The position numbers were made by a program, and so were the translations under genes. The notes beneath the pieces are model-generated. The model had not been told where the DNA came from. It searched no databases and saw only the letters and a program-made list of their open reading frames with translations. From a phage, in the sequence record PX104378.1: a DNA stretch of 64,000 bases; one strand, written 5' to 3'. Numbering within the stretch: position 1 is the first letter of the stretch; every line of letters begins with the position of its first letter. Positions 34,847 to 42,338 of the stretch are shown one piece after another.

Positions 34847-34875
34847 ATTATAGGGGATCGATGATCCCCTGTCAA
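34847..34875 (-). promoter_or_regulatory. Early promoter cassette P1 (TTGACA-N17-TATAAT, GC palindrome in spacer)
   Basis: Minus strand TTGACAggggatcatcgatccccTATAAT then conserved leader gcacacataccgaaacgaa; drives 34598..34810. Confidence 0.6.
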
Positions 34876-37115: not shown

Positions 37116-37155
37116 TGTTTGATTCTCCTAAGTGGTATCTCGTCTTGATGGTTGT

Positions 37156-37184
37156 ATTGTAGGGGAGTTATCCTCCCCTGTCAA
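37156..37184 (-). promoter_or_regulatory. Early promoter cassette P2 (TTGACA-N17-TACAAT, palindromic spacer)
   Basis: Same architecture upstream of 36864..37115; coords +/-2. Confidence 0.55.
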
Positions 37185-37198
37185 CACTTTTTATAAAA

Positions 37199-37366
37199 TT
37201 ATTTGTTAATTTCTGGTGCGTTGCTAGGATAGTAACCTTCTTTAACTCCGAGGTATTTCGCAACCATCCCTACAATCTTCTGTGCTACTACAATGTCAAA
37301 TTTCAGATAATCTTCGCCGTGGGTTTCAATGATATATGCTTCACATGCTGCTTTAGTCTCGAACAT
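37199..37366 (-). CDS. Small early protein (55 aa), copy A of a duplicated gene; not in ORF table
   Basis: MFETKAACEAYIIETHGEDYLKFDIVVAQKIVGMVAKYLGVKEGYYPSNAPEINK; about 85-90 percent identical to 40461..40628; promoter cassette upstream. Confidence 0.6.
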   Translation of the reverse strand: MFETKAACEAYIIETHGEDYLKFDIVVAQKIVGMVAKYLGVKEGYYPSNAPEINK

Positions 37367-37399
37367 TTTGATTCTCCTATTTCGTTTCGGTATGTGTGT

Positions 37400-37428
37400 A
37401 TTATAGGGGATCTCCCGATCCCCGTCAA
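37400..37428 (-). promoter_or_regulatory. Early promoter cassette P3 (TTGACG-N17-TATAAT, palindromic spacer)
   Basis: Upstream of 37199..37366; conserved leader. Confidence 0.55.
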
Positions 37429-37442
37429 CAACTTTTTTAAAA

Positions 37443-37724
37443 TTATTCGTGATTAGTTTCGATGTTGTACATTTTGCACCAGTTCAGCCAATCGCCCAGA
37501 TCTTGATAGTTGATGCTTTTATCTGCGGCCATCGTTTTTGTCTTGATACCCATATGTGCGTTATGAGTAAGCATTTTTACAGTGAACTCAATTTTATCGC
37601 CTTTAGCTTTAACATCAACCAGTTTGGTCCACTGGCTACCAGCACCGCGAATGTTCATACCAACGATGTTTCCGATGTATGCTTCTTTGTTTTTCAGGAT
37701 TTCGGTTGCTTTGATGAATTTCAT
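37443..37724 (-). CDS. Small early protein
   Basis: 93 aa; ATG with SD downstream of promoter cassette. Confidence 0.6.
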   Translation of the reverse strand: MKFIKATEILKNKEAYIGNIVGMNIRGAGSQWTKLVDVKAKGDKIEFTVKMLTHNAHMGIKTKTMAADKSINYQDLGDWLNWCKMYNIETNHE

Positions 37725-37757
37725 TTTTGATTCTCCAGTTCGTTTCGGTATGTGTGT

Positions 37758-37786
37758 ATTATGCTATGTTCTTACTTTGGTGTCAA
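37758..37786 (-). promoter_or_regulatory. Early promoter cassette P4 (TTGACA-N17-CATAAT)
   Basis: Upstream of 37443..37724; conserved leader; no palindrome. Confidence 0.55.
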
Positions 37787-37795
37787 CAACTTTTT

Positions 37796-38065
37796 TTAGA
37801 TATTTTCAGAAATAAATTTTAAAACTTGACGTAAATGTTTCTCATCTTTGATGGTAGCCGGAAGTTCTTCTTTTACTTCCTGTGCAAGATAGATATTTCC
37901 GTTCCAAGTGAAAGATCCGTCTTCGTTTACTCGATAGCTGAACATCCACTCGCAATCATTTTCGATTTCATATACACACAGAAGGGTGTAATCGTTAAAG
38001 CTATTGATTTCAAGGTCGAAGCCGTGACGTTTTGCAAAGTTGGTAGTGGTTTTAGTCAGTGCCAT
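37796..38065 (-). CDS. Small early protein
   Basis: 89 aa; ATG with SD downstream of promoter cassette. Confidence 0.6.
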   Translation of the reverse strand: MALTKTTTNFAKRHGFDLEINSFNDYTLLCVYEIENDCEWMFSYRVNEDGSFTWNGNIYLAQEVKEELPATIKDEKHLRQVLKFISENI

Positions 38066-38105
38066 TGTTTGATTCTCCTAAGTGGTATCTCGTTTCGATG
38101 TGTGT

Positions 38106-38134
38106 ATTATGCTATAGGCTAGACCAGGTGTCAA
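38106..38134 (-). promoter_or_regulatory. Early promoter cassette P5 (TTGACA-N17-CATAAT)
   Basis: Upstream of 37796..38065. Confidence 0.55.
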
Positions 38135-38160
38135 CAACTTTTTTTAATTTTTTTGGAAAT

Positions 38161-38184
38161 AAAAAAGCCGACGCTAAGGTCGGC
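38161..38184 (-). terminator. Intrinsic terminator after 38193..38501
   Basis: Minus-strand hairpin GCCGACC-TTAGC-GTCGGC followed by TTTTTT. Confidence 0.6.
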
Positions 38185-38192
38185 TAATAAAA

Positions 38193-38501
38193 TCATTTAG
38201 ACAAATAATCATTCTGTGCAATCCGGTCGGCGTATGCTGGTGTTACGTCAATCGCAATCACTTTAACGCGTGCTTTCTTGCGACCTGGGTTTTCTCGTAA
38301 CCAGTGCTCATGACCGTGAACATTTTTATACTGCGATGCTTCTTCGAAGGTACGGATCGGACCTGGGTAATCAGCGTAAAGGATCTCTAGATCTTCGGTG
38401 ATGTAAAAATATACATCGTAATTGCTGTTCTCTAGCTTAAGCAGAGACTTTCGGAACATTGGGAGATTTTCGCGGGTAAATTCAAAGATATTATCTTTCA
38501 T
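38193..38501 (-). CDS. HxHxHW-family small protein (paralog 1 of 6)
   Basis: 102 aa; YDVYFYITEDL ... HGHEHWL ... VIAIDV; terminator downstream. Confidence 0.65.
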   Translation of the reverse strand: MKDNIFEFTRENLPMFRKSLLKLENSNYDVYFYITEDLEILYADYPGPIRTFEEASQYKNVHGHEHWLRENPGRKKARVKVIAIDVTPAYADRIAQNDYLSK

Positions 38502-38524
38502 AGTATTATCCTCAATAGTTGGAT

Positions 38525-38546
38525 GAAAAGGGGGCTTAACGCCCCC
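38525..38546 (-). terminator. Intrinsic terminator after 38552..38839
   Basis: Minus-strand hairpin GGGGGCG-TTAA-GCCCCC followed by TTTTC. Confidence 0.55.
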
Positions 38547-38551
38547 ATATA

Positions 38552-38839
38552 TTAAAACAGTCCTTCTTGTACGCCGTAGTAGAGTTCGTCGCTGATAATT
38601 TCATTAATGCGACGGTGTGCATATTCCTGATTTGCGAAGTTGTCAGCAAGTTCTACTTTAGTTTCGCCGTCATGAGTCCATTTAGTGATAACTTTACCAT
38701 CTGCAAATTTGAAGTTGAACTCTTTAGCTACTGCATCGCGTACCAGACGTGCAAACTTGTTGTTACGGATTGCATTATCGGTTTCGTGTGCAGCGTGAGC
38801 AAATTTGTTAACTTTCAGCGTGATAGTGATGTATGCCAT
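38552..38839 (-). CDS. Small early protein
   Basis: 95 aa; ATG with SD downstream of promoter cassette; terminator downstream. Confidence 0.6.
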   Translation of the reverse strand: MAYITITLKVNKFAHAAHETDNAIRNNKFARLVRDAVAKEFNFKFADGKVITKWTHDGETKVELADNFANQEYAHRRINEIISDELYYGVQEGLF

Positions 38840-38885
38840 AATTTGATTCTCCTAGTTAGAAAGTGTATCTCGTTTCGATGGGTGT

Positions 38886-38914
38886 ATTATGCTATACACC
38901 CGATCTTATGTCAA
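38886..38914 (-). promoter_or_regulatory. Early promoter cassette P6 (TTGACA-N17-CATAAT)
   Basis: Upstream of 38552..38839. Confidence 0.55.
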
Positions 38915-38920
38915 CACTTT

Positions 38921-39199
38921 TTATAAAATAATTTTTTGATATTTTTCTATGATGTTCGTGTAATCCACATCAACCGCTATCACCGTTGCTTCGAATCCAC
39001 CGTTTAGCCAATGGCTATGGTCATGATCGTGAAAGAAACCAAGACCAGTACGAAGACCTTCTTTATATTCGGCGCGTACATTTAGATCATCATCGATAAA
39101 CAGATAAAACCATGAATTTTTACTAGGATTGATGATACAACCTTTCAGATTAGGGAGAATATCACGACTAAGAATAAACTTATCACCTACTTTGAACAT
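38921..39199 (-). CDS. HxHxHW-family small protein (paralog 2)
   Basis: Start trimmed to ATG with SD GAGGA (table start is GTG); WFYLFIDDDL ... HDHDHSHWL ... VIAVDV. Confidence 0.65.
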   Translation of the reverse strand: MFKVGDKFILSRDILPNLKGCIINPSKNSWFYLFIDDDLNVRAEYKEGLRTGLGFFHDHDHSHWLNGGFEATVIAVDVDYTNIIEKYQKIIL

Positions 39200-39203
39200 A
39201 ATA

Positions 39204-39524
39204 TTAGTCCTCACTTATAAGGTCAAACCAATTGTTTTTCGCATAATGCTTAATGCGTGCTTGATCTGCTTCTGCTGGTGATAGATTCCATGCAACCACT
39301 ACAACTTCTGACGCATCGTCATCCGTTTCTGATACCCAATGATTATGATTCATACAATTGTTTGCTATCGCGTGAGCAAATGATTTCATCACTGGAGACG
39401 TATAATCATAGTAACGGATTTTCAGATTTTCATCAACGTACAAATAGATCGTATAAGGTTTATATTCAGTAACCAGTAACAGACAGTTACGCAATTCTGG
39501 GAAAATATTTTTAGTTAATTTCAT
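39204..39524 (-). CDS. HxHxHW-family small protein (paralog 3)
   Basis: 106 aa; TIYLYVDENL ... NHNHWV ... VVVAWN; ATGA coupling to upstream gene. Confidence 0.6.
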   Translation of the reverse strand: MKLTKNIFPELRNCLLLVTEYKPYTIYLYVDENLKIRYYDYTSPVMKSFAHAIANNCMNHNHWVSETDDDASEVVVVAWNLSPAEADQARIKHYAKNNWFDLISED

Positions 39525-39727
39525 ATTCTAGTTCTCCGTAATACACGGTAATCCATTTTTTCTTCATACTTTGTATCTTTCCAACACACAATCCCGTTTA
39601 CTGTGCAATCTTTGGAATTGACGAATGATTCATATTGTTCTGCATCTTCCATCATTGCATGAGCGGTCTTTTCATCGAATATATCGCAGATCGCTTTATA
39701 TGCTCGATAATCTTTAAATTTGCTCAT
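39521..39727 (-). CDS. MSKFKDY-family small protein (tandem paralog B)
   Basis: Start trimmed to MSKFKDYRAY; paralogous to adjacent 39730..39939. Confidence 0.55.
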   Translation of the reverse strand: MSKFKDYRAYKAICDIFDEKTAHAMMEDAEQYESFVNSKDCTVNGIVCWKDTKYEEKMDYRVLRRTRI

Positions 39728-39729
39728 AA

Positions 39730-39939
39730 TTAAGACCACTCAAGAGTTTTTGAAAACACATCTATCCATTGTTGAGTATATGCGGTTTCTTTCCATGATA
39801 CAATACCAGTCGAATAATGGTTTTTGTTTCCAGAAAAGGACGGGCATTTTGAGGCATCTTCCATCATCTTTTCGGCGAACTCTGGTTCGTATACTCGCAA
39901 GATCTGTTGATATGCTTTATAATCTTTAAATTTGCTCAT
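39730..39939 (-). CDS. MSKFKDY-family small protein (tandem paralog A)
   Basis: 69 aa; MSKFKDYKAYQQIL..EKMMEDAS; overlaps stop of upstream gene. Confidence 0.55.
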   Translation of the reverse strand: MSKFKDYKAYQQILRVYEPEFAEKMMEDASKCPSFSGNKNHYSTGIVSWKETAYTQQWIDVFSKTLEWS

Positions 39940-40204
39940 AATTGTTAACTACCTTATCAGCTTCTTTTATTGTTTTTACATCAACTGCGATAATCCGTAA
40001 AGGTTCGTCGAAGGTCCACCAATGATCGTGATTATCAGCTTGTGATTTATCACCAAAGGAATCACGAATATCATTTTTACATTTATAGCTAATGTGACCT
40101 TCATAGTCAACATAAAGGTAATTATCAAAAATCGGCGTTTTTAAGATCATACCGAAAAATCTTTCTTTGTGTGTCTTATCCAGCGTTGCAGTAATTCGCA
40201 TCAT
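39926..40204 (-). CDS. HxHxHW-family small protein (paralog 4)
   Basis: 92 aa; NYLYVDYEGH ... DNHDHWW ... IIAVDV. Confidence 0.65.
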   Translation of the reverse strand: MMRITATLDKTHKERFFGMILKTPIFDNYLYVDYEGHISYKCKNDIRDSFGDKSQADNHDHWWTFDEPLRIIAVDVKTIKEADKVVNNYEQI

Positions 40205-40216
40205 AATATATTCCTC

Positions 40217-40396
40217 TTAGAAAGGGATGGTCATTTCTTGAGCTTGTACATTCTCGTTAGGATTAAACTTCATCCAACCGATATTGTCTACCAGCATATG
40301 CACATTTTTATCATATCCTACGTGAGTAGTCAATACTGTATGTGCTTTACCTTCAACGATGATTTCCATGTACTTCTGAACTTCGATAGCTTTCAT
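40217..40396 (-). CDS. Small early protein (59 aa), not in ORF table
   Basis: ATG with SD downstream of promoter-like cassette; MKAIEVQKYMEIIVEGKAHTVLTTHVGYDKNVHMLVDNIGWMKFNPNENVQAQEMTIPF. Confidence 0.5.
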   Translation of the reverse strand: MKAIEVQKYMEIIVEGKAHTVLTTHVGYDKNVHMLVDNIGWMKFNPNENVQAQEMTIPF

Positions 40397-40428
40397 TTTG
40401 ATTCTCCGTTTGTTGTCTTGATGGGAGT

Positions 40429-40457
40429 ATCTTACTACTCCCTTTAATCATTGTCAA
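40429..40457 (-). promoter_or_regulatory. Promoter-like cassette P7 (TTGACA, weak -10 TAAGAT, palindromic spacer)
   Basis: Upstream of 40217..40396; degenerate -10. Confidence 0.4.
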
Positions 40458-40460
40458 CGA

Positions 40461-40628
40461 TTATTTGTTAATTTCCGGTGCGTTGCTTGGATAGTAACCT
40501 TCTTTAACACCCAGATATTTTGCAACCATTCCGGTGATCTTCTGTGCTACTACGATATCGAATTTCAGGTAGTCTTCACCGTGGTTTGCTACAATGTATG
40601 CTTCGCATTCTGCTTTAGTCTGGAACAT
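40461..40628 (-). CDS. Small early protein (55 aa), copy B of duplicated gene
   Basis: Start trimmed to MFQTKAECEAY (table start lies inside the promoter); near-identical to 37199..37366. Confidence 0.6.
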   Translation of the reverse strand: MFQTKAECEAYIVANHGEDYLKFDIVVAQKITGMVAKYLGVKEGYYPSNAPEINK

Positions 40629-40662
40629 TTTTGATTCTCCTATATCTCGTTGGTATGTGTGC

Positions 40663-40692
40663 ATTATAGGGGATCGGTGACCCCCCTGTCAA
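40663..40692 (-). promoter_or_regulatory. Early promoter cassette P8 (TTGACA-N18-TATAAT, GC-rich spacer)
   Basis: Upstream of 40461..40628; conserved leader. Confidence 0.55.
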
Positions 40693-40699
40693 CAACTTT

Positions 40700-41002
40700 T
40701 TATTCTTCGTCTTTATCTTTATATGCGTATTTCATAAATTTGTCTGCCACTTCGTCCGCGTTTTCAGGTTCTACGTCTGACGCTAGGACAACAGCTAGTT
40801 CGGTTTTGTCGTTTCCATCATACCAATGATTATGAGTGTCGTTTTCTTCGATATAAAACGAATCATTTGGATATGGGCGACAATATACGTCTAAATTCCC
40901 ATCGATATAAAAGATCCAATCCGAATACAAAATGATTGTTTTAGCCAGATTTTTATTGTCTCTTACAAAAGGTTCCGCGACAAATAGCTTAGTTTGTTCC
41001 AT
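40700..41002 (-). CDS. HxHxHW-family small protein (paralog 5)
   Basis: Start trimmed to ATG after SD GAGGAG (MEQTKLF); IFYIDGNLDV ... DTHNHWY ... VVLASDV. Confidence 0.6.
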   Translation of the reverse strand: MEQTKLFVAEPFVRDNKNLAKTIILYSDWIFYIDGNLDVYCRPYPNDSFYIEENDTHNHWYDGNDKTELAVVLASDVEPENADEVADKFMKYAYKDKDEE

Positions 41003-41018
41003 AGTAATCTCCTCAAAA

Positions 41019-41210
41019 TTATACAACTTCGTAAACTTCCCAATGTCCAACACCGGAACGCTTAACGAAAAGGTTTTCTTTGATGTTATTCATAAACGTC
41101 TGGATGGATTTAATGCGGTTGGAAGGTTTCCAGTCTTCGTTGGCATTGCGGCGATACATAATAACATTACCAGTTCTCTTATATTCAGCAACCATTTTAA
41201 GACCACACAT
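41019..41210 (-). CDS. Small hypothetical protein
   Basis: 63 aa; ATG with SD GAGGA. Confidence 0.45.
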   Translation of the reverse strand: MCGLKMVAEYKRTGNVIMYRRNANEDWKPSNRIKSIQTFMNNIKENLFVKRSGVGHWEVYEVV

Positions 41211-41267: not shown

Positions 41268-41588
41268 TCACACAAAATGGCGTTTCAATGCTTCTTTTGC
41301 GGTTCCGCTAAGACTTTCGATCTCGCCTGGCATAACATCAACTGCCAGAACTTCTACAACATCCTCTGACCCCAACCAGTGAGTATGACCTTTGTAGAAC
41401 TTGATAACCAGACTACCTTCCTCATCCCATTTAACGCTATCGCTAGCCCACCACACATCACCGTCGATAAAGTTGATGTAAAGCACACTACGCCACATTG
41501 AATTAATTACTTTCAATACTGCGCCTTTCATATCTTCCACGGTGTGGTCTTCCATTTTGAAGACCTCGCCTACCTGAACTTTTGCCAT
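41268..41588 (-). CDS. HxHxHW-family small protein (paralog 6)
   Basis: 106 aa; LYINFIDGDV ... GHTHWL ... VLAVDV; ATG with SD AGGTGA. Confidence 0.65.
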   Translation of the reverse strand: MAKVQVGEVFKMEDHTVEDMKGAVLKVINSMWRSVLYINFIDGDVWWASDSVKWDEEGSLVIKFYKGHTHWLGSEDVVEVLAVDVMPGEIESLSGTAKEALKRHFV

Positions 41589-41861: not shown

Positions 41862-42338
41862 TTATTTTTCTTGATGCTCGCGCTCGTACTTTTCGAAATA
41901 AAATTCTACTGGCTGGTCGTGGATTGACAGTAAGCCAAAGCGTTTAGCCGCTCGCAACCCCATATTGCGCTGAATGTACTTCTGGAAGTTCTCGCGTATA
42001 CACTTACGCCAGTATTCTAAGCCCATACAGCTTTTATAAAGATTGCATTGCACACACGCCGGATTCATGTTATCAAGTATATCATGCTCCGGTTTATGCA
42101 TTCCTACAACCTTATACTTCCACGATCCATCATCATTACGGGCAATTCGTCCATTTTCATCATAGACTACTTTTGAGCGTCGTAATACTGGTTTGATGTG
42201 GTCTGCGTGCCAGCGATCCCCTAGTTCCTCGCCACAATAGGCACAACGTCCACCATATTTCATTTTCAGGATCTGGCGTTGCTCTTTCTTTGACAATTTT
42301 TTAGGTTTAGGGGCTTTCGCCCCTTCATTATCACACAT
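41862..42338 (-). CDS. HNH endonuclease
   Basis: 158 aa; CAYCGEEL ... HADHIKPV ... CVQCNLYK; 8-nt overlap with DNA ligase stop. Confidence 0.75.
   Translation of the reverse strand: MCDNEGAKAPKPKKLSKKEQRQILKMKYGGRCAYCGEELGDRWHADHIKPVLRRSKVVYDENGRIARNDDGSWKYKVVGMHKPEHDILDNMNPACVQCNLYKSCMGLEYWRKCIRENFQKYIQRNMGLRAAKRFGLLSIHDQPVEFYFEKYEREHQEK

What the first reader, a model, noticed from the sequence alone, without database searches (positions are those of the whole stretch)
37199..40628. Near-identical duplicated 55-aa gene at two loci 3.2 kb apart, each with its own promoter cassette
37199..37366 (MFETKAACEAYIIETHGEDYLKFDIVVAQKIVGMVAKYLGVKEGYYPSNAPEINK) and 40461..40628 (MFQTKAECEAYIVANHGEDYLKFDIVVAQKITGMVAKYLGVKEGYYPSNAPEINK) are about 85-90 percent identical in protein and DNA, far more conserved than neighbouring paralogs. 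That implies a recent duplication, gene conversion, or strong purifying selection. Copy A is below the ORF-table size cutoff and copy B's table start is an over-extension into the promoter.
Basis: seen in the sequence. Interest (0 to 1): 0.45.

Follow-up and report, generated by a model that had tools for sequence, protein, structure and literature searches.

The report
Old duplicated phage early gene cassette
Two copies of a tiny early gene in an RB49-like (T4-type) coliphage are real, but they are an old, selectively maintained pair sitting in already-described mobile promoter cassettes, not a recent duplication, and what the protein does is still unknown.

Summary
Copy A (37199-37366, minus strand) and copy B (40461-40628, minus strand) are 49/55 aa and 142/168 nt identical, and they are the only two copies in the window. 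The window is a Krischvirus (RB49-like). The copies are the orthologues of RB49 ORF191 and ORF205, both in PHROG 8009 (function unknown).

The "promoter cassettes" are PeSLs (promoter-early stem-loops; Arbiol et al. 2010). That paper tested PeSL206/205 as a promoter and recovered ORF191 in a recombination mini-circle.

The duplication is not recent. dS is about 1.05, dN 0.055 and dN/dS about 0.05, against a dS of about 0.1 between orthologues. All 59 full Krischvirus records carry at least one copy: 52 carry both, 5 only B and 2 only A. Strong purifying selection explains the similarity. Short gene-conversion tracts exist (PHI p<0.001) but do not homogenise the pair.

Homology specific to A and B is confined to the CDS. 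Each flanking PeSL is closer to a PeSL elsewhere in the window. Recombination within PeSLs has removed A cleanly in some phages and, at least twice independently, removed the whole inter-copy block together with B.

Homologues occur in siphoviruses and Salmonella prophages. AlphaFold2 gives a confident small alpha/beta fold with no solved relative. This is an ordinary locus in a known system, with some new detail.

The parts
37199..37366 (-). Copy A: 55-aa CDS, orthologue of RB49p191 (ORF191); PHROG 8009
   Evidence: Translation. 98-100% identical to RB49p191 and its orthologues. phrog_8009 E=7e-38.
37367..37450 (-). PeSL upstream of A. It has an AT-rich tract holding the stop codon of the upstream gene, -35 TTGACG (37428), hairpin GGGGATC-GGGA-GATCCCC between the boxes, -10 TATAAT (ends 37400), an AGGAGA Shine-Dalgarno sequence and the ATG
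   Evidence: Promoter scan 11/12. RNA fold shows a 7-bp G/C stem. Its closest relative in the window is the PeSL at 41858-41787 (93% over 73 nt), not B's PeSL.
37116..37198 (-). PeSL downstream of A. It is the promoter for the 83-aa RB49p190 homologue, and its hairpin GGGGAGG-ATAAC-TCCCC is the likely attenuator ending A's transcript
   Evidence: Promoter TTGACA-17-TACAAT. Fold -20.5 kcal/mol, z=-3.7. Its 3' half is the recombination partner in the A-deletion junction of JK32, Brandy and UPWr_E1.
40461..40628 (-). Copy B: 55-aa CDS, orthologue of RB49p205 (ORF205); PHROG 8009
   Evidence: Translation. 100% identical to RB49p205. phrog_8009 E=1e-38.
40629..40712 (-). PeSL upstream of B, equivalent to PeSL206/205 of RB49/phi1. 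It has -35 TTGACA (40692), an 8-bp hairpin between the boxes, -10 TATAAT (ends 40663), a Shine-Dalgarno sequence and the ATG
   Evidence: 12/12 consensus promoter. Fold. Closest relative is the PeSL at 34885-34836 (94% over 51 nt). PeSL206/205 gave about 13,000 Miller units in a lacZ fusion (PMC2839356).
40397..40460 (-). PeSL downstream of B, of a different subclass with the hairpin overlapping the -10 box. It is the promoter for the 59-aa RB49p204 homologue
   Evidence: TTGACA-17-TAAGAT. Hairpin GGGAGTA-gtaaga-TACTCCC, -15.2 kcal/mol, z=-3.8.
37443..40396 (-). Inter-copy block of 10 small genes of unknown function (homologues of RB49p193-p204). It is variable between phages, and Cognac and FL04 lack it together with the B CDS
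   Evidence: ORFs and PHROG hits, all of unknown function. Cognac and FL04 gene maps and junction alignments.

Best explanation
The window is a Krischvirus (RB49-like T4-type) genome. The two ORFs are the orthologues of RB49 ORF191 and ORF205. They form an ancient paralogous pair of monocistronic early-gene cassettes in hyperplastic region 3.

How each cassette is built and expressed. Each CDS is bracketed by PeSLs (promoter-early stem-loop elements). The upstream PeSL supplies a near-consensus sigma-70 promoter with an embedded G/C hairpin and a strong Shine-Dalgarno sequence. Unmodified host RNA polymerase would therefore transcribe the gene immediately after infection. The hairpin of the next PeSL attenuates read-through. 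These expression steps are inferred here; they were shown experimentally for PeSL206/205 and other PeSLs by Arbiol et al. 2010.

Why the copies are so similar. Both proteins are under strong purifying selection (dN/dS about 0.05), while synonymous sites have diverged almost to saturation. The duplication, or a double acquisition, therefore predates the radiation of the known Krischviruses. Six amino-acid differences at positions 3, 7, 13-15 and 32 are largely fixed per paralog.

What recombination does at the locus. The PeSLs, and to a lesser extent the 168-nt CDS repeat, act as recombination substrates. They produce:
- short ectopic gene-conversion tracts between A and B;
- clean excision of A, leaving a chimeric PeSL;
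- recurrent deletion of everything from B's CDS up to A's start.
This matches the published PeSL mini-circle model. A dispersed duplicate whose specific homology stops at the ORF boundaries is what excision and re-integration of a PeSL-ORF circle at another PeSL would produce (inferred).

The protein. It is a compact 55-aa alpha/beta domain with no recognisable enzymatic or DNA-binding signature. My working hypothesis, held at roughly 40%, is that it binds an enterobacterial host factor early in infection, for host take-over or counter-defence, and that A and B are partly redundant variants. Three points motivate it: every one of the 59 Krischvirus genome records keeps at least one copy, either copy can be lost, and relatives occur only in phages and prophages of Escherichia and Salmonella.
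For: Identity of the locus:
- 93-96% DNA identity to Krischvirus genomes.
- RB49p191 and RB49p205 lie at the orthologous positions.

PeSL anatomy and published experiments:
- Anatomy.
- The paper reports PeSL206/205 promoter activity and a mini-circle containing ORFs 191-194 (PMC2839356).

Age and selection:
- dS=1.05, dN=0.055, omega=0.053. Orthologue dS is 0.09-0.12.
- Census: 59/59 full genome records carry at least one copy. 52 carry both, 5 only B and 2 only A.

Extent of the duplicated unit:
- A's PeSL is closest to the PeSL at 41858-41787 and B's to the one at 34885-34836.
- Downstream similarity ends at the stop codon.

Gene conversion:
- Diagnostic-site table. B of Brandy and PTE-Eco09 is A-like at six consecutive sites (nt 51-75). 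A of kaaroe, G2494 and Cognac is B-like at nt 108-153. A of PTE-Eco09 is B-like at nt 7-24.
- PHI p<=0.0008. The chance that six switched sites out of 26 are consecutive is 9e-5.

Deletions:
- JK32, Brandy and UPWr_E1 carry a chimeric PeSL with the crossover between the -10 box and the Shine-Dalgarno sequence.
- MIZ5 has a larger PeSL-to-PeSL deletion.
- Cognac (crossover between the 5'UTR and the ATG) and FL04 (crossover in the AT-rich/-35 part) lost the block independently.

Protein:
- The AlphaFold2 model built from a 14-sequence alignment has pLDDT 95, pTM 0.75.
- Homologues occur in Swiduovirus, Sashavirus and Salmonella lambdoid prophages.
Against: - No expression, transcription-start or protein data were examined for this phage. 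Promoter and terminator activity is extrapolated from RB49/phi1 experiments on orthologous or similar PeSLs.
- The dS estimate rests on only about 34 synonymous sites.
- With 55 residues, the phylogeny cannot separate an in-genome duplication from two separate acquisitions.
- The functional hypothesis has no direct support. There are no hits in Pfam, NCBIfam, PADLOC or PDB sequences and no fold relatives.
- 'At least one copy always retained' is based on 59 closely related and partly redundant records, and on only about four independent deletion events.
Confidence: 0.8

Rival explanations
1. Recent tandem or dispersed duplication: the two copies are similar because too little time has passed for them to diverge.
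For: High protein identity (89%). Both copies lie in a region known for rapid rearrangement (PMC2839356).
Against: 19 of about 34 synonymous sites differ (dS about 1.05), roughly ten times the divergence between orthologues. A-type and B-type genes are separately conserved in 52 of 59 genome records. The flanking PeSLs are not each other's closest relatives.
Confidence: 0.02
2. Concerted evolution: ongoing gene conversion between A and B is the main force keeping them alike.
For: Clear mosaic tracts in several phages and a significant PHI test.
Against: Conversion would also homogenise synonymous sites, yet 26 nucleotide differences persist and are shared by orthologues across the genus. Tracts are short (about 15-40 nt) and lineage-specific. 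Within-genome A-B dS stays between 0.33 and 1.18.
Confidence: 0.06
3. Xenologs rather than paralogs: A and B were acquired separately as PeSL-ORF cassettes (for example mini-circles) from different donor phages, not copied within one genome.
For: - A/B-specific homology is limited to the ORF, and each copy sits between generic PeSLs.
- The family circulates among unrelated phages. A Salmonella prophage allele (P0003) is 83% identical to A and 78% to B, with 76% nt identity to A.
- Prophage variants carry the gene on either side of a p194-like gene.
Against: A and B are closer to each other (89%) than either is to any outside homologue found (83% at most). That is the pattern expected for duplication within the lineage. 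No donor with a B-type allele was found.
Confidence: 0.2
4. The repeats are not protein-coding genes but repeated regulatory or RNA elements that happen to contain ORFs.
For: The ORFs are very short, and copy A falls below common ORF cut-offs.
Against: - Differences are concentrated at third-codon positions (omega 0.05).
- A strong Shine-Dalgarno sequence lies at the correct spacing.
- The reading frame is conserved at 40-72% aa identity in unrelated phages whose DNA has diverged.
- The predicted fold is confident.
Confidence: 0.01

Closest known systems
PeSL (promoter-early stem-loop) ORFan cassettes of phages RB49 and phi1 (Arbiol, Comeau, Kutateladze, Adamia, Krisch 2010, Genome Biol Evol 2:140; PMC2839356)
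   Same: - Same genus, same hyperplastic region and the same genes. ORF191 is copy A and ORF205 is copy B.
- Same architecture: AT-rich tract, sigma-70 consensus promoter, G/C hairpin, Shine-Dalgarno sequence and ATG.
- The deletions seen here have crossovers between the -10 box and the ATG or in the AT-rich part, as that paper reported.
   Different: The 2010 and 2014 papers do not mention that ORF191 and ORF205 are paralogs (text searches). They also do not describe gene conversion between them or the retention of at least one copy. The window lacks ORF192, as phi1 does, and also lacks ORF195 and ORF196.
PHROG 8009 (phage protein family of unknown function)
   Same: Both copies match the 55-position profile end to end (E about 1e-38).
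   Different: The family carries no functional annotation, so membership says nothing about mechanism.
'Morons' of lambdoid phages: an autonomous promoter-ORF-terminator unit inserted between conserved genes (concept from Hendrix and colleagues, cited from my own knowledge)
   Same: The cassette is a self-contained transcription unit carrying a small accessory gene. Homologues in Swiduovirus and Sashavirus sit in a small opposite-strand island next to the terminase gene with their own sigma-70 promoter. In Salmonella prophages they lie near the prophage end or in the nin region.
   Different: In Krischvirus the units are arrayed head to tail by the dozen, and their near-identical regulatory ends act as the recombination sites.
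Integron gene cassettes
   Same: A small circular intermediate carries one or a few ORFs and re-inserts at a conserved site in an array.
   Different: No integrase or attC site is involved. PeSL exchange is thought to rely on homologous recombination at promoter sequences, and each cassette brings its own promoter.

Membership tests
PeSL cassette (Arbiol et al. 2010) | Near-consensus sigma-70 -35 and -10 boxes with a spacer of about 17 nt | tested here: met
   A: TTGACG-17-TATAAT (11/12). B: TTGACA-18-TATAAT (12/12). The downstream PeSLs score 11/12 and 10/12.
PeSL cassette (Arbiol et al. 2010) | A G/C-rich stem-loop (polyG...polyC) within or next to the promoter | tested here: met
   [quoted passage not shown] The downstream PeSLs have a hairpin between the boxes (A) or overlapping the -10 box (B). 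Whole-segment z-scores are modest for the two upstream PeSLs (-1.3 and -1.7) and stronger for the downstream ones (-3.7 and -3.8).
PeSL cassette (Arbiol et al. 2010) | An AT-rich tract upstream of the -35 box that contains the stop codon of the preceding gene, and a Shine-Dalgarno sequence plus start codon at the 3' end | tested here: met
   Read directly from the sequence...TAATTTTAAAAAAGTTGTTGAC... and ...TAGGAGAATCAAAATG.
PeSL cassette (Arbiol et al. 2010) | Repeated many times in a hyperplastic region, flanking ORFans | tested here: met
   Nine such promoters lie on the minus strand in 34.5-42.5 kb, and 12 were aligned from the window. All flanked genes hit PHROGs of unknown function.
PeSL cassette (Arbiol et al. 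2010) | Mediates insertion or deletion of the flanked ORFs by PeSL-PeSL recombination | tested here: met
   Chimeric PeSL junctions in JK32, Brandy, UPWr_E1, MIZ5, Cognac and FL04.
PeSL cassette (Arbiol et al. 2010) | Promoter and terminator activity in vivo | not testable with these tools
   Shown for PeSL206/205 (promoter, about 13,000 Miller units) and PeSL211/210 (terminator) of RB49/phi1 in PMC2839356. It was not measured for this phage.
PHROG 8009 | A full-length significant match to the family profile | tested here: met
   E=6.8e-38 for A and 1.2e-38 for B, covering positions 1-55 of 55.
Recent segmental duplication | Low synonymous divergence, and homology that extends into the unique flanks | tested here: not met
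   dS=1.05. Specific homology stops at the CDS ends.
Paralogs undergoing ectopic gene conversion | Runs of adjacent paralog-diagnostic sites switched to the other paralog's state, plus a significant recombination test | tested here: met
   (tracts of 3-6 consecutive sites in at least six sequences). (PHI p=0.0006, 0.0008 and <0.0002, i.e. 0 of 5000 permutations, for the three window sizes).
Known anti-defence or defence proteins (PADLOC-DB), Pfam, NCBIfam, PDB | A sequence or fold match to a characterised family | tested here: not met

The most novel reading that the evidence does not exclude
The 55-aa protein may be a previously unrecognised small fold that acts on an enterobacterial host factor and that Krischviruses cannot do without, since at least one of the two diverged copies is kept in every genome. 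Its cassette, together with the neighbouring ORF193-like and ORF194-like genes and PeSL-like promoters, may belong to a gene pool exchanged between virulent T4-type phages, virulent siphoviruses and temperate lambdoid Salmonella prophages. That would extend PeSL-type cassette mobility beyond the T4 superfamily.
Probability: 0.25. Interest if true: 0.55.

Novelty: new member of a known kind. Interest (0 to 1): 0.28.

Why it matters
The locus illustrates how the hyperplastic regions of T4-type phages evolve. The regulatory ends of the cassettes (PeSLs) are exchanged and homogenised faster than the genes they carry. A small gene can persist as two diverged copies for the whole history of a genus, and the same elements cause recurrent block deletions.

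The practical value is modest:
- It flags ORF191/ORF205 (PHROG 8009) as one of the few ORFans in this region that appears to be under selection for retention. That makes it a reasonable candidate for knockout and interaction studies of early host take-over or counter-defence.
- It corrects gene-calling artefacts, namely the 67-77 aa over-extended starts for copy B.

It does not open a new class of system.

Tried and rejected
- Function by sequence. Pfam, NCBIfam and PADLOC gave nothing. The only extra PHROG hit was weak (phrog_485, E=0.01). A PDB sequence-profile search gave nothing.
- Exhaustive HMMER search of 1.84 billion representatives. It found only five hits, all family members, fragments or a repeat-protein false positive.
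- The conserved partner gene of the siphovirus homologues (swi2 'next' gene, Sasha gp03). Its only window match (27965-27876, E=9e-4) lies antisense inside a 577-aa plus-strand ORF, so I rejected it as chance.
- Whether the prophage promoters are true PeSLs. A nucleotide HMM built from 12 window PeSLs matches the region upstream of the prophage homologue only weakly (E about 0.007-0.1). The result is suggestive but not accepted.
- Whether the A-B promoter similarity marks the duplication boundary. It does not, because each PeSL has a closer relative elsewhere in the window.
- Literature search for an earlier description of the paralogy or of a function. Nothing was found in the searchable library.


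Full report
**1. Observation**

- They share 49/55 residues (BLASTP E=1e-37) and 142/168 nucleotides.
- tblastn of either protein against the whole window finds only these two loci.
- Of the 23 differing codons, 17 are purely synonymous and 6 change the residue, at positions 3, 7, 13, 14, 15 and 32.
- The neighbouring paralog families are much more diverged. The six-member 'HxHW' family is 25-33% identical and the tandem pair at 39521-39939 is 46% identical.
- The mechanical ORF for copy B (67 aa, 40461-40664) starts at an ATG overlapping the -10 hexamer (TATAATG). The annotated RB49 orthologue is 168 nt. The comment about over-extension is also correct.

**2. What the window is**

The 4.3-kb region matches 59 phage records at 93-96% identity, all Krischvirus (RB49-like Straboviridae). 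In RB49 the copies are RB49p191 (A) and RB49p205 (B), both annotated as hypothetical proteins. Both belong to PHROG 8009, which has no known function.

**3. The 'promoter cassettes' are PeSLs**

Each copy is preceded by the same set of elements:
- an AT-rich tract containing the stop codon of the upstream gene;
- a near-perfect sigma-70 promoter (A: TTGACG-17-TATAAT; B: TTGACA-18-TATAAT);
- the sequence ...TAGGAGAATCAAA(A)ATG.

Each copy is also followed directly by another such element (37184-37156 and 40457-40429). This is the promoter-early stem-loop (PeSL) described for RB49 and phi1 (PMC2839356).

That paper used this very neighbourhood as its worked example:
- ORF192, which is absent from this window as it is from phi1, sits between ORF191 and ORF193.
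- A sequenced mini-circle contained ORFs 191-194.
- The cloned PeSL206/205, the element upstream of copy B, gave about 13,000 Miller units.

Neither that paper nor the 2014 follow-up mentions that ORF191 and ORF205 are paralogs.

**4. Extent of the duplicated unit**

The upstream similarity between A and B is not specific to the pair:
- A's PeSL is 93% identical over 73 nt to the PeSL at 41858-41787, which drives an unrelated 59-aa gene.
- B's PeSL is 94% identical over 51 nt to the one at 34885-34836.
- A's and B's PeSLs match each other only at 87% over the 3' 46 nt.

Downstream, the alignment collapses right after the stop codon. Pair-specific homology therefore equals the CDS. The regulatory ends evolve in concert with other PeSLs and are now more alike than the coding repeats.

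**5. Age and selection**

Nei-Gojobori estimates for A versus B are S=33.7, Sd=19, dS=1.05, N=131.3, Nd=7, dN=0.055 and omega=0.053. Among 10 A orthologues and 13 B orthologues, mean dS is 0.09 and 0.12.

Census of the phage collection:
- The ligase gene identifies 59 full Krischvirus records plus one 1.5-kb fragment.
- All 59 carry at least one copy.
- 52 carry both.
- 5 carry only B (MIZ4, MIZ5, JK32, Brandy, UPWr_E1).
- 2 carry only A (Cognac, FL04).

The pair therefore predates the sampled genus. The similarity reflects constraint on the protein, not youth.

**6. Gene conversion**

At the 26 A/B-diagnostic sites, several sequences carry runs of the other paralog's state:
- B of Brandy and PTE-Eco09 is A-like at six consecutive sites (nt 51-75).
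- A of kaaroe (nt 108-120), G2494 (nt 117-153) and Cognac (nt 114-120) is B-like.
- A of PTE-Eco09 is B-like at nt 7-24, which converts residues 3 and 7.

A PHI-type permutation test on 27 informative sites gives p=0.0006, 0.0008 and <0.0002 (0 of 5000 permutations) for the three window sizes. The chance that six switched sites out of 26 are consecutive is 9e-5. Conversion is real but comes in short patches, and most tracts fall where the two proteins are identical.

**7. Structural variants generated at the locus**

- JK32, Brandy and UPWr_E1. ORF193 is followed by a single chimeric PeSL. It has the 5' half of PeSL193/191, including A's hairpin, and the 3' half of PeSL191/190. The crossover lies between the -10 box and the Shine-Dalgarno sequence, so A was excised as a cassette.
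- MIZ5. A larger deletion runs from the same upstream PeSL to the PeSL equivalent to 34875.
- Cognac and FL04. Both keep B's upstream neighbours, an A-type CDS and A's downstream neighbours, and both lack the whole inter-copy block.
  - In Cognac the 5'UTR is B-type and the switch lies in the Shine-Dalgarno/ATG stretch.
  - In FL04 the hairpin and 5'UTR are A-type and the switch lies in the AT-rich/-35 part.
  - These are therefore two independent events with the same outcome.

None of the observed events removed both copies.

**8. Relatives elsewhere**

- tblastn finds 68-72% identical homologues in Swiduovirus-like siphoviruses and about 40% identical ones in Sashavirus-like phages. There the gene heads a small opposite-strand island next to the large terminase gene. 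It has its own sigma-70 promoter and a conserved partner gene.
- A profile search adds Salmonella prophage alleles.
  - In one lambdoid prophage the homologue (P0005) is followed by homologues of Krischvirus ORF193 (60% identity, E=2e-35) and ORF194 (40%, E=1e-20).
  - In a related prophage an allele 83% identical to A (76% at the nucleotide level) follows the ORF194-like gene with overlapping stop and start codons.
  - Another homologue sits beside ninG.
- The prophage units carry AT-rich/TTGACA/TAATAT promoters with G/C hairpins and GGAGAATCAAAG-ATG. A PeSL nucleotide HMM matches them only weakly (E about 0.007).

The family is thus a mobile accessory gene of phages that infect Escherichia and Salmonella.

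**9. The protein**

- With a 14-sequence alignment, AlphaFold2 gives a confident model (pLDDT 95.2, pTM 0.75). The elements are a short N-terminal strand, helices at 5-16 and 18-22, a strand at 28-31, a helix at 33-39, a strand at 44-47 and a C-terminal turn.
- Invariant residues are F2, T4, K5, C8, E9, Y11, I12, G17, A28, Y45, S48 and N49.
- Function is therefore unknown.

I commit, at about 40%, to a host-factor-binding role early in infection, with A and B as partly redundant variants. The supporting points are:
- an immediate-early promoter;
- small size with no catalytic or DNA-binding signature, and a mildly acidic composition as read from the sequence;
- restriction to phages of enterobacteria;
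- retention of at least one copy in every genome;
- paralog-specific residues that stay fixed.

**10. Verdict**

The system (PeSL cassettes in RB49 hyperplastic region 3) is already described. What is new is limited to the following:
- recognition of the ORF191/ORF205 paralogy;
- its conversion tracts;
- the recurrent PeSL-mediated deletions around it;
- its retention in every genome;
- its spread across phage families;
- a confident fold prediction without known relatives.

Interest is low to moderate.

Noticed in passing
window 38193-38501, 38921-39199, 39204-39524, 39926-40204, 40700-41053, 41268-41588 (all minus strand): A six-member paralog family of proteins of about 92-117 aa shares a central H-x-H-W motif (HGHEHWL, HDHSHWL, NHNHWV, NHDHWW, THNHWY, GHTHWL) and a downstream 'V.A.DV' segment. 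The members are 25-33% identical and hit PHROGs 9345, 17255 and 15972, all of unknown function.
   Followed up: partly
window 39521-39727 and 39730-39939 (minus strand): Tandem paralogs that both start MSKFKDY(K/R)AY. They are 46% identical and both fall in PHROG 8471.
   Followed up: partly
window 41858-41787, 37450-37367, 34885-34828, 37762-37726: A sub-family of PeSLs is 93-97% identical in front of unrelated genes. These regulatory cassettes are more alike than the duplicated coding sequences (84.5%), which points to concerted evolution or frequent exchange of PeSLs.
   Followed up: partly
window 37115-37100 and about 34810-34795 (minus strand): The 83-aa gene downstream of copy A and the gene downstream of the PeSL at 34875 share their first five codons (ATGGCTAACATCGAAA, MANIE) although the proteins then diverge. 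PeSL homology appears to run into the 5' end of these CDSs. MIZ5's deletion joins exactly these contexts.
   Followed up: no
L018 8001-8855 and L021 5484-5926 (Salmonella enterica prophages): Homologues of three neighbouring Krischvirus genes (ORF191, ORF193, ORF194) are also adjacent in lambdoid Salmonella prophages, but in different orders. Each unit is preceded by AT-rich/TTGACA/TAATAT promoters with G/C hairpins.
   Followed up: partly
L015 4001-4358 (Swiduovirus swi2) and L016 3992-4625 (Sashavirus Sasha): In two siphovirus genera the homologue heads a small opposite-strand island beside the large terminase gene. It is followed by a conserved helical partner protein of about 70 aa (MxxxPKCLREIPK...). 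No credible counterpart of this partner was found in the window.
   Followed up: partly
protein P0006 (73 aa, ENA contig of 2334 nt): The first 22 residues are identical to copy B and are fused to a histidine-kinase ATPase fragment (PF02518). This is most likely an assembly or gene-calling chimera.
   Followed up: no
window 38166-38185 and 38530-38546 (minus strand): Two classical intrinsic-terminator-like hairpins with T-runs lie inside the inter-copy block, after the genes at 38193-38501 and 38552-38839. These spots have no PeSL, so not every unit in the array is bounded by one.
   Followed up: no
window 41862-42338 (minus strand): A 158-aa ORF lies between the DNA ligase gene and the ORFan array. 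Its counterparts in relatives are annotated as an HNH endonuclease, so a possible mobile element sits at the border of the hyperplastic region.
   Followed up: no
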